Program-made: the position numbers and the translations under genes | Notes under the pieces: model-generated | Seen by the model: the letters and a program-made list of their open reading frames with translations, nothing else | Told to the model about the DNA's origin: nothing | The model's database searches: none | In this document: piece after piece, positions 1-1,091 of the stretch | Position numbering within the stretch: position 1 is the first letter of the stretch | How the letters are laid out: the number at the start of each line of letters is the position of its first letter | Sequence record: J05393.1 | DNA: 1,091 nucleotides | Origin: a phage | Strand: one strand, 5' to 3'

Positions 1-1
1 A

Positions 2-103
2 AAAGGGAAGTTTCTCAAAAAGGTCCGGGAGCGTGGCGGCTTCTCTGCCGTCGCATACGGATTCGGGCAATTCAAGATCGCAATTTACGAAATGATGAAA
101 TAG
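2..103 (+). CDS. 3' end of an upstream protein-coding gene (C-terminal fragment, truncated by window edge); product unknown
   Basis: Frame starting at nt 2 reads without stops to TAG at 101-103 (...KGKFLKKVRERGGFSAVAYGFGQFKIAIYEMMK*). Its codons (GGC, TTC, GCC, GTC, TAC, ATC) look enterobacterial. The other two + frames are also open at the edge: frame 1 runs to TAA 166-168 but uses several rare codons (AGG, CGG x3, ATA x2, CGA x2); frame 3 stops at TGA 93-95. Frame choice is therefore tentative. Confidence 0.4.
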   Translation, partial: KGKFLKKVRERGGFSAVAYGFGQFKIAIYEMMK

Positions 104-109
104 CACTTT

Positions 110-126
110 TTGTTAAAACTGCCGGG
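110..126 (+). repeat. copy 1 of an imperfect 17-bp direct repeat (TTGTTAAAACTGCCGGG)
   Basis: Matches 1073-1089 (TTGCTAAAACTACCCGG) at 14 of 17 positions, with an identical TAAAACT core. Lies 6 nt after the upstream TAG stop. Confidence 0.25.
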
Positions 127-160
127 ATGGAATCTGGCATTATTATCTCACCAAAACGAG

Positions 161-165
161 AGGAA
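161..165 (+). promoter_or_regulatory. Shine-Dalgarno / ribosome-binding site for the methyltransferase gene
   Basis: GAGGA at 161-165, 5 nt upstream of the ATG at 171 (acgaGAGGAataaaATG), with A-rich spacing. Confidence 0.6.
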
Positions 166-170
166 TAAAA

Positions 171-824
171 ATGAAAGACTTTAATGATATCGAAACTATC
201 GACTTTGCAGAAACTGGTTGCTCATTCACTCGCGAAGCAATAGCATCAGGCGGTTATTATCAGGCATTGAAAACGCCAACCTGTAAAGAGATTTCAGGGC
301 GTCGATACAAGGGGACAAATACCCCTGACGCTGTTCGTGATTTATGGTCAACTCCGCGAGAGGTTATTGCATACCTTGAGGGTCGTTATGGGAAATATGA
401 TCTCGACGCTGCGGCAAGCGAAGAAAATAAAGTTTGCGAGAAGTTTTACTCTCAGGAAACAAACTGCTTAAAACGTTGGTGGGGAAAGAATAAGCACGTT
501 TGGTTAAATCCTCCTTATAGCCGACCTGATATATTTGTCAACTCTACTGCGTGGTTTACTGAAGCGCGGCAGAACGCAGCTGAAATAATCTGGATTGAAG
601 CGGACTTGACTGAGGATATTGACGGCAATGAATACGCACGATCCGGTCGCCTGGCTTTCATATCCGGTGAAACTGGAAAGGCCGTAGACGGTAATAACAA
701 AGGTTCGGTAATTTTTATTATGCGCGAACTTAAAGAAGGTGAGGTGCAACAGACTCACTACATCCCAATCACAAGCATTTGCCCTTCGGTGAAAAACAAA
801 CGAGCAAAGGTGAGGAAAGTATGA
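171..824 (+). CDS. DNA N6-adenine methyltransferase, phage Dam-like family (orphan; no partner endonuclease in window)
   Basis: 217-aa ORF with a good SD. It contains WSTP (aa 59-62, nt 345-356), DLDAAAS (aa 77-83, nt 399-419) and VWLNPPYS with the NPPY catalytic tetrapeptide (aa 113-116, nt 507-518). The order and spacing (W-TP ... LD-AAS ... N ... W ... NPPY) match what I recall of phage-encoded Dam-like N6-adenine methyltransferases. Stop TGA at 822-824. Confidence 0.85.
   Translation: MKDFNDIETIDFAETGCSFTREAIASGGYYQALKTPTCKEISGRRYKGTNTPDAVRDLWSTPREVIAYLEGRYGKYDLDAAASEENKVCEKFYSQETNCLKRWWGKNKHVWLNPPYSRPDIFVNSTAWFTEARQNAAEIIWIEADLTEDIDGNEYARSGRLAFISGETGKAVDGNNKGSVIFIMRELKEGEVQQTHYIPITSICPSVKNKRAKVRKV
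809..815 (+). promoter_or_regulatory. Shine-Dalgarno for the downstream small ORF, embedded in the 3' end of the methyltransferase gene
   Basis: aaGGTGAGGaaagtATG: a GGTGAGG purine-rich block ending 5 nt before the ATG at 821. Confidence 0.6.
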
Positions 825-1072
825 TGAGCGAAAAAATGGTTCCTGTTAAATTAACTGAGCAAGGTTTATGGCTACTTTATCGAGCTACGTGCTGCGAAAT
901 TATGGAGCGAAACGGATTGACTCAGGATGTTATTGGTTGCGATCTGTGGGAGTTCACTAGTTCTCTTGATATGCTTTTCGATGAGATAAAAAATGAATAC
1001 ATAGAGAACTGGCCTTCAATCATACAGAAAGACGTGGAAGAACTTAAAGCTGATACAATCGTACAGCACTAA
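821..1072 (+). CDS. hypothetical small acidic protein (83 aa), translationally coupled to the methyltransferase gene
   Basis: ATG at 821-823 overlaps the methyltransferase stop TGA (822-824) as ATGA, with a second ATG at 824-826. The track ORF 779-1072 is the same frame but its first codon is TTG with no SD, so 821 is preferred. Product MMSEKMVPVKLTEQGLWLLYRATCCEIMERNGLTQDVIGCDLWEFTSSLDMLFDEIKNEYIENWPSIIQKDVEELKADTIVQH; by my count 16 D/E versus 7 K/R (net about -9). Stop TAA at 1070-1072. I recognise no family motif. Confidence 0.7.
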   Translation: MMSEKMVPVKLTEQGLWLLYRATCCEIMERNGLTQDVIGCDLWEFTSSLDMLFDEIKNEYIENWPSIIQKDVEELKADTIVQH

Positions 1073-1089
1073 TTGCTAAAACTACCCGG
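1073..1089 (+). repeat. copy 2 of the imperfect 17-bp direct repeat (TTGCTAAAACTACCCGG)
   Basis: Begins immediately after the TAA stop of the small ORF (1070-1072); 14/17 identity to 110-126. Confidence 0.25.
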
Positions 1090-1091
1090 CG

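What the first reader, a model, noticed from the sequence alone, without database searches (positions are those of the whole stretch)
171..824. Orphan phage-type N6-adenine methyltransferase of unknown target specificity
Seen in sequence: the catalytic NPPY motif and the upstream WSTP / DLDAAAS elements are present, but no restriction endonuclease gene lies in this window. Established knowledge: phage-encoded orphan Dam-like methyltransferases protect phage DNA from host restriction or alter host and phage gene expression. Inference: this is a self-protective anti-restriction or epigenetic enzyme. The roughly 58 residues before the WSTP motif may be a lineage-specific extension.
Basis: partly seen in the sequence, partly recalled or inferred. 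Interest (0 to 1): 0.45.

Follow-up and report, generated by a model that had tools for sequence, protein, structure and literature searches.

The report
Phage T1 Dam gene, old record
This is the long-known GATC-specific Dam DNA methyltransferase gene of coliphage T1, read from its original 1990 database record, which lacks 60 bases found in every other copy, so it is ordinary.

Summary
The ORF at 171-824 and its WSTP, DLDAAAS and NPPY motifs are real. The gene is not an enzyme of unknown specificity. The window is 99.6% identical to Escherichia phage T1, and the 217-aa product is exactly GenBank AAA87390.1, 'DNA N-6-adenine-methyltransferase (M.T1)'. T1 Dam (M.EcoT1Dam) methylates GATC. This was shown biochemically in the 1980s and re-confirmed in 2023 with DpnI/MboI digests and a dam deletion phage (PMC10470545).

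The window lacks 60 nt, or 20 codons (KKAIEQMEHNNQIDMLLPAD), directly after the NPPY motif. All other T1-like genomes have this segment, and so do all 57 distant family members I aligned. In a confident model of the 237-aa protein the segment forms half of a helix and a whole core strand.

The gap can be placed exactly after window base 540 (9 x 60) and is exactly 60 nt long. The most likely cause is one dropped line of a 60-column sequence file, not biology.

The N-terminal extension is about 45 aa, is predicted with low confidence, and is shared by a subclade that carries a conserved MKDxxDxxTxDAF motif.

Verdict: already known, low interest.

The parts
1..103 (+). 3' end of the upstream gene (T1 ST21, a VRR-NUC nuclease or putative Holliday junction resolvase), with stop TAG at 101-103. 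Bases 1-17 differ from modern T1 genomes at six positions when compared base for base; aligned with gaps, this is one extra G and a C-to-A change.
   Evidence: T1 annotation. The full T1 protein hits Pfam VRR_NUC at 4.6e-14. The window fragment hits phrog_824. Differences are listed.
120..149 (+). Terminator-like hairpin TGCCGGGATGGAATCTGGCA followed by a T-rich tail, lying between the upstream gene and dam.
   Evidence: Consensus scan. NC_005833 annotates a rho-independent terminator at the matching place. Function not tested.
160..163 (+). Ribosome-binding site GAGG, 7 nt before the dam ATG.
   Evidence: Annotated in AY216660. The sequence was read.
171..824 (+). The dam ORF as it stands in this record. 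It encodes 217 aa, identical to AAA87390.1 (M.T1). The true gene is 714 nt and encodes 237 aa.
171..305 (+). N-terminal extension (aa 1-45) ahead of the family core. It carries the motif MKDFNDIETIDFA and a GGYYQA stretch. It is predicted with low confidence.
   Evidence: The Pfam and TIGRFAM profiles start at aa 46-49. pLDDT is below 50 for residues 1-44. The motifs are conserved in a subclade.
345..356 (+). WSTP (aa 59-62), part of the conserved RDLWxTP element at the start of the family core.
   Evidence: Position. W59, T61 and P62 are invariant or nearly invariant among 59 family sequences.
399..419 (+). DLDAAAS (aa 77-83). The model has a short strand followed by a loop here, and D79 is invariant. 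I infer it is the motif I-like AdoMet-binding element.
   Evidence: The assignment to motif I is inference from the class I methyltransferase fold, not a test.
507..518 (+). NPPY (aa 113-116), catalytic motif IV of amino-methyltransferases, at the end of model strand 109-112.
   Evidence: Position. N113, P114 and P115 are invariant. Strand position.
540..541 (+). Junction where 60 nt present in all other copies are missing (AGAAGG...GCAGATA, coding KKAIEQMEHNNQIDMLLPAD). The gap can follow base 539, 540 or 541.
   Evidence: The junction 27-mer is absent from viral contigs. Every listed phage record that covers the junction region carries the extra 60 nt.
821..1072 (+). Downstream 83-aa ORF ('HP 83', T1 ST19) of unknown function. 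Its ATG overlaps the dam stop codon (ATGA), which suggests translational coupling.
   Evidence: It hits phrog_2676 at 3.3e-29, a family of unknown function. T1 annotation.
974..975 (+). CT here, against TC in all T1-like genomes. This gives Leu instead of the conserved Ser (DMLFDE against DMSFDE) in the 83-aa ORF. It is probably an old base-order reading error.
1080..1091 (+). First arm of a terminator hairpin that is cut off by the end of the window.
   Evidence: The terminator is annotated in NC_005833 at the matching place. The alignment shows the second arm lying beyond the window.

Best explanation
The window is the original (1990) database record of the dam gene region of coliphage T1. 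The gene encodes T1 Dam (M.EcoT1Dam). This is a small, stand-alone, AdoMet-dependent DNA methyltransferase of the phage N-6-adenine-methyltransferase family (PF05869 / TIGR01712). It converts GATC to G6mATC on phage DNA.

Inferred mechanism: the enzyme has a class I Rossmann-type fold. The DLDAAAS loop holds AdoMet. The target adenine is flipped into the NPPY pocket, where its N6 amino group receives the methyl group. Because the phage makes its own enzyme, its fast-replicating DNA becomes fully GATC-methylated, which host Dam achieves only partly. This protects against GATC enzymes that methylation blocks, and it supports a normal burst size.

The 217-aa reading frame in this window is not the real protein. 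The record lacks 60 nt that would be positions 541-600 of an 1151-nt sequence. That is exactly one line of a 60-column sequence file, so the gap is most probably a clerical dropped line. The real protein has 237 aa.
For: Identity: the window is 99.6% identical to four T1 genome records over the whole window. The protein is identical to AAA87390.1 'DNA N-6-adenine-methyltransferase (M.T1) [Escherichia phage T1]'.

Family: PF05869 at 1.7e-54 and TIGR01712 at 245.5 bits. N113, P114, P115 and D79 are invariant in 59 family sequences.

Specificity and phenotype: in PMC10470545, T1 DNA from a dam- host is DpnI-sensitive. The dam deletion phage CC20 loses this and becomes MboI-sensitive. Its burst falls from about 52 to about 32. 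Host Dam only partly methylates CC20 DNA. PMC4996451 names M.EcoT1Dam as G6mATC-modifying.

Gap as artefact:
- It is exactly 60 nt and can follow base 540 = 9 x 60.
- The 217-aa form is recorded on no contig, while the 237-aa form is on 695.
- Every listed phage record that covers the junction has the 60 nt, and the junction 27-mer is absent from viral contigs.
- All 57 distant family representatives have 17-24 residues in the segment.
- A profile built without T1 skips exactly 20 match positions in the 217-aa form, scoring 157.5 against 202.1 bits. Pfam gives 184.5 against 236.5 bits.
- The segment covers residues 124-130 of helix 119-130 and all of strand 135-141.
- The same record has other small discrepancies typical of old manual sequencing, at bases 1-17 and 974-975.
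Against: I could not read the 1990 paper or the flat file of the record. The clerical cause, and the assumption that window base 1 is record base 1, are therefore inferred from the numbers alone. Because of a 2-nt AA ambiguity, the chance that a random gap touches a line boundary is 3/60, which is suggestive but not proof. TIGR01712 scores the 217-aa form slightly higher than the 237-aa form (245.5 against 238.1 bits), and I cannot explain this. Foldseek found no PDB match with E <= 0.001, so the assignment of individual fold elements rests on a predicted model. The biological role (anti-restriction or something else) is only partly documented.
Confidence: 0.85

Rival explanations
1. The 60-nt deletion is real in the DNA that was sequenced. 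It would be either a deletion that arose in the plasmid clone (dam over-expression is harmful to E. coli) or a variant T1 stock. In that case the 217-aa protein is a broken, inactive methyltransferase that lacks a core strand.
For: The deletion is in frame and is flanked by a 2-nt AA repeat that could support slippage. It removes a conserved helix and strand directly after the catalytic motif, so it would relieve toxicity.
Against: The length of exactly 60 nt and the placement at base 540 fit a dropped file line. No restriction-site pair flanks the gap. No other sequence anywhere carries the junction. From my own recollection, not checked here, the clone was identified by its activity.
Confidence: 0.1
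2. The 217-aa protein is a genuine, active short isoform of T1 Dam, which would mean the helix and strand after NPPY are dispensable.
For: Only that the frame stays open, and that TIGR01712 still scores it well above its cut-off in one stretch.
Against: All 57 distant relatives keep the segment. In the model it includes a whole core strand (135-141) directly after the catalytic strand. The 217-aa form is seen on no contig, against 695 for the 237-aa form.
Confidence: 0.02
3. One reading: an orphan phage methyltransferase whose target motif is unknown and may be new.
For: A relative with 35% identity, M.Btr190III, methylates GATC but also shows considerable off-target activity. The family may therefore be somewhat relaxed. 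I found no modern methylome of T1 grown in a dam- host in the papers I could read.
Against: This exact gene product is the characterised T1 Dam with GATC specificity.
Confidence: 0.03

Closest known systems
Escherichia phage T1 Dam (M.EcoT1Dam; YP_003925.1 / AAP49979.1, 237 aa)
   Same: It is the same gene. Every residue of the 217-aa product is identical to the 237-aa protein, and the DNA is 99.6% identical. Specificity is GATC.
   Different: The window's copy lacks residues 124-143 of the 237-aa protein. This is most probably a fault in the record.
Phage N-6-adenine-methyltransferase family (Pfam PF05869 'Dam', NCBIfam TIGR01712), including M.Btr190III of Bibersteinia trehalosi
   Same: It shares the conserved core: RDLWxTP, DxAA, NPPY, the helix and strand after NPPY, GRxxF and GN.KGS. 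M.Btr190III also methylates GATC.
   Different: T1 and its subclade add an N-terminal tail of about 45 aa and an insertion of about 14 aa (EADLTEDIDGNEYA) before GRLAF. Most members are 150-190 aa and lack these.
Classical Dam enzymes (E. coli Dam, T4 Dam, DpnM; alpha-class)
   Different: There is no detectable sequence similarity. No such structure is found by sequence and there is no Pfam hit other than PF05869. PMC10470545 also notes no significant similarity to host Dam. In T1 Dam the AdoMet-loop motif and NPPY are only about 35 residues apart, with no recognition domain between them.
Gamma-class N6-adenine DNA methyltransferases (M.TaqI, M.BseCI, CamA) and the mRNA cap m6Am methyltransferase PCIF1
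   Different: Those enzymes are 380-550 aa with large separate target-recognition domains. T1 Dam is 237 aa with none. The similarity is at fold level only.

Membership tests
Phage N-6-adenine-methyltransferase (PF05869 / TIGR01712) | Profile score above the curated cut-off | tested here: met
   PF05869 scores 184.5 bits against 28.1. TIGR01712 scores 245.5 bits against 97.05.
Phage N-6-adenine-methyltransferase (PF05869 / TIGR01712) | Catalytic motif IV, (N/D)PP(Y/F) | tested here: met
   NPPY lies at aa 113-116. N, P and P are invariant in 59 sequences.
Phage N-6-adenine-methyltransferase (PF05869 / TIGR01712) | Conserved WxTP element and invariant Asp of the DxAA loop | tested here: met
   W59, T61, P62, D79 and A82 are invariant or nearly invariant.
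Phage N-6-adenine-methyltransferase (PF05869 / TIGR01712) | Complete core, including the helix and strand directly after motif IV | tested here: not met
   The window ORF has 0 residues in this segment, where all 57 relatives have 17-24. The profile skips 20 match positions. The 237-aa T1 protein from all other records does meet this feature.
Phage N-6-adenine-methyltransferase (PF05869 / TIGR01712) | N6-adenine methylation of DNA (GATC for T1 Dam) | not testable with these tools
   The literature covers the 237-aa protein: PMC10470545 and PMC4996451.
Classical alpha-class Dam (E. coli Dam / T4 Dam, MethyltransfD12) | Detectable sequence homology to Dam, T4 Dam or DpnM | tested here: not met
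Methyltransferase of a restriction-modification system | A restriction endonuclease gene adjacent to the methyltransferase gene | tested here: not met
   The neighbours in T1 are a helicase, a VRR-NUC protein, small hypothetical proteins and a repair exonuclease. An HNH homing-type endonuclease lies 2.3 kb away and is not paired with dam.

The most novel reading that the evidence does not exclude
The N-terminal tail of about 45 residues is predicted as disordered, yet it starts with a motif (MKDxxDxxTxDAF) conserved in relatives down to 33% identity. It could be a docking peptide or a DNA-reading arm. For example, it could tether the enzyme to the replication machinery, or supply the GATC recognition that this very small enzyme otherwise has no domain for. 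That would be a new way for a minimal methyltransferase to find its target.
Probability: 0.12. Interest if true: 0.4.

Novelty: already known. Interest (0 to 1): 0.07.

Why it matters
This matters little for biology. The enzyme, its target and the effect of deleting it are all published. The practical point concerns data quality. AAA87390.1 in the public protein databases is very probably 20 residues short because of a dropped line, and the missing residues sit in the catalytic core. The record should not be used as the reference T1 Dam sequence, as a seed for family models, or as evidence for a short isoform.

Tried and rejected
1. I checked whether the 60-nt gap is a lost restriction fragment. 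No pair of identical sites flanks it, and the junction merely creates a HincII site. Rejected.

2. I checked whether any other sequence shares the gap. The junction 27-mer gave 0 hits in viral contigs. Among phage records, every listed hit spans 140 nt for an 80-nt query. The exact 217-aa protein is known only from NCBI nr and is seen on no contig. None was found.

3. I searched for prophage copies in 5,426 complete E. coli genomes and found no match.

4. I considered a link to the non-specific adenine methyltransferases Hia5, Hin1523 and Nma1821. PMC3299994 shows these are DPPY/FxGxG enzymes related to classical Dam, not to this family. The lead was dropped.

5. A single-sequence AlphaFold model of the 217-aa form gave pLDDT 34.6, which is uninformative. 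It cannot be compared with the alignment-based model of the 237-aa form.

7. An Rfam scan of the window found nothing.

8. The primary papers are not in the library: J Biol Chem 1990 and Virology 2004, and J Virol 1984 and 1979.

Full report
**1. What is in the window**

The only long ORF is 171-824 on the + strand, 217 aa.
- WSTP at aa 59-62 (nt 345-356)
- DLDAAAS at aa 77-83 (nt 399-419)
- NPPY at aa 113-116 (nt 507-518)

Fifty-eight residues precede WSTP. The protein matches Pfam PF05869 'DNA N-6-adenine-methyltransferase (Dam)' at E=1.7e-54. It also matches NCBIfam TIGR01712 'phage N-6-adenine-methyltransferase' at 245.5 bits against a cut-off of 97.05, and phrog_111 'DNA methyltransferase'.

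**2. Identity**

The whole window is 99.6% identical to four genome records of Escherichia phage T1, and 92-95% identical to many other Tunavirus genomes. An exact-sequence look-up shows that the 217-aa product is GenBank AAA87390.1, 'DNA N-6-adenine-methyltransferase (M.T1) [Escherichia phage T1]'. That protein is held only in NCBI nr and is seen on no assembled contig. The 237-aa form (AAP49979.1 / YP_003925.1) is seen on 695 contigs. The T1 genome annotation refers to the downstream 'HP 83 (AAA87391)' of the same old record. The window is therefore the original record of the T1 dam region.

**3. Function is known**

- PMC10470545 tested YP_003925.1 directly. T1 DNA made in a dam- host stays DpnI-sensitive, so the phage enzyme makes G6mATC. 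A CRISPR-made dam deletion phage (CC20) grown in the dam- host is unmethylated at GATC and MboI-sensitive.
- In the same paper, the burst of CC20 is about 40% smaller even in dam+ cells (52.3 against 31.9), and host Dam only partly methylates CC20 DNA. The authors cite the 1987 purification paper and the 1990 sequence paper as agreeing.
- PMC4996451 calls M.EcoT1Dam 'G6mATC-modifying'. It reports that a relative with 35% identity, M.Btr190III, also methylates GATC but with off-target activity.
- 'Unknown target specificity' is therefore not correct, and the proposed experiment has already been done.

**4. The 60 missing bases**

Alignment with T1 shows a clean 60-nt gap in the window. The protein alignment is 100% identical apart from 20 missing residues, KKAIEQMEHNNQIDMLLPAD, straight after NPPYSRPDIFV.

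No other sequence shares the gap:
- Every listed phage record that covers the region spans 140 nt for an 80-nt query.
- The junction 27-mer is absent from viral contigs.

The segment belongs to the family core:
- In an alignment with 57 representatives sharing 26-57% identity, every one has 17-24 residues there.
- A profile built from those 57 sequences, without T1, aligns the 237-aa form in one piece at 202.1 bits. It splits the 217-aa form into two pieces, skipping exactly profile positions 85-104, for 157.5 bits.
- Pfam gives 236.5 against 184.5 bits.

An AlphaFold2 model of a 237-aa homolog 98% identical to T1 Dam (P0003) has mean pLDDT 81, with the core above 90. It puts NPPY just after strand 109-112. 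The missing residues 124-143 cover the last seven residues of helix 119-130, the loop, and all of strand 135-141. Loss of a whole core strand next to the active site should destroy the enzyme. This is an inference.

**5. Why the bases are missing**

- The gap can be placed after window base 539, 540 or 541 because of a 2-nt AA ambiguity. 540 is 9 x 60, and the gap is exactly 60 nt. That is what the loss of line 10 of a 60-column sequence file would produce.
- No restriction-site pair flanks the gap.
- The record also has small discrepancies of the kind seen in hand-read gels. One extra G and one substitution lie in bases 1-17. A CT/TC swap at 974-975 turns a Ser that all relatives conserve into Leu.
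- I rate a clerical dropped line as the most likely cause. A real deletion in the sequenced clone is the main rival. I could not read the 1990 paper to settle this.

**6. Fold and relatives**

- No solved structure is detectable by sequence.
- Foldseek finds no PDB match with E <= 0.001.

T1 Dam thus shares target and chemistry with classical Dam but belongs to a different sequence family. PMC10470545 also notes this. The family is large, with 5,482 representatives at E <= 0.001.

**7. N-terminal extension**

- The profiles start at residues 46-49, so the extension is about 45 aa, not 58.
- Forty-five of the 57 representatives have 14 residues or fewer there, and 12 have 34 or more.
- In the model, residues 1-44 have pLDDT below 50.
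- The extension is not unique to T1. Relatives down to 33-38% identity begin with MKDxxDxxTxDAF and have a GHYQAV stretch before the core.
- What the tail does is unknown. A role in docking or DNA reading is possible but untested.

**8. Surroundings**

- Upstream lies the end of a VRR-NUC gene (stop at 101-103), then a terminator-like hairpin at 120-139, then a GAGG ribosome site at 160-163.
- Downstream, an 83-aa ORF of unknown function starts at 821 and overlaps the dam stop codon (ATGA).
- No restriction enzyme gene is near dam in T1, so 'orphan' is correct.
- No Rfam family matches the window, and no copy exists in complete E. coli genomes.

**9. Verdict**

This is an already known enzyme, seen in its own founding database record. 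The only thing worth recording is that the record, and so AAA87390.1, is very probably defective by one 60-nt line.

Noticed in passing
window 540|541: Exactly 60 nt (20 codons) present in every other T1-like genome are missing. The gap falls on a multiple of 60 in window coordinates, as a dropped flat-file line would. The lost segment also held the gene's only PstI and ClaI sites and one GATC.
   Followed up: yes
window 974-975: CT here against TC in all T1-like genomes. This changes a Ser that all five relatives checked conserve (DMSFDE) to Leu in the 83-aa downstream ORF. It is probably a transposed pair of bases from manual gel reading. A UniParc/MetaClust entry (P0010, 317 aa) that fuses the 237-aa Dam to this ORF also has the Leu.
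   Followed up: partly
window 1-17: The 5' end differs from modern T1 genomes by one extra G and a C-to-A change. This would shift the frame of the first few codons of the upstream VRR-NUC gene fragment.
   Followed up: partly
window 171-305 (aa 1-45): The N-terminal tail is predicted as disordered, yet it begins with a motif, MKDxxDxxTxDAF. Its role is unknown.
   Followed up: partly
window 171-824, scored against NCBIfam TIGR01712: TIGR01712 scores the defective 217-aa form higher (245.5 bits, one stretch) than the true 237-aa form (238.1 bits, two stretches). Pfam and my own profile both penalise the 217-aa form by 45-52 bits. One possible reason is that the old short sequence was used in building that model. 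This was not checked.
   Followed up: no
window 821-1072: The 83-aa ORF ('HP 83', phrog_2676, unknown function) overlaps the dam stop codon by ATGA. In the clustered protein collection its homologs, from several Tunavirus-type phages, sit in the same cluster as Dam. It may be co-translated with Dam.
   Followed up: no
window 588-635 (aa 140-155 of the 217-aa ORF; residues 160-175 of the 237-aa protein): An insertion of about 14 residues (EADLTEDIDGNEYA) lies before the conserved GRLAF. Only part of the family has it. In the model it forms extra short strands. It is a candidate DNA-recognition element in an enzyme that has no separate recognition domain.
   Followed up: no
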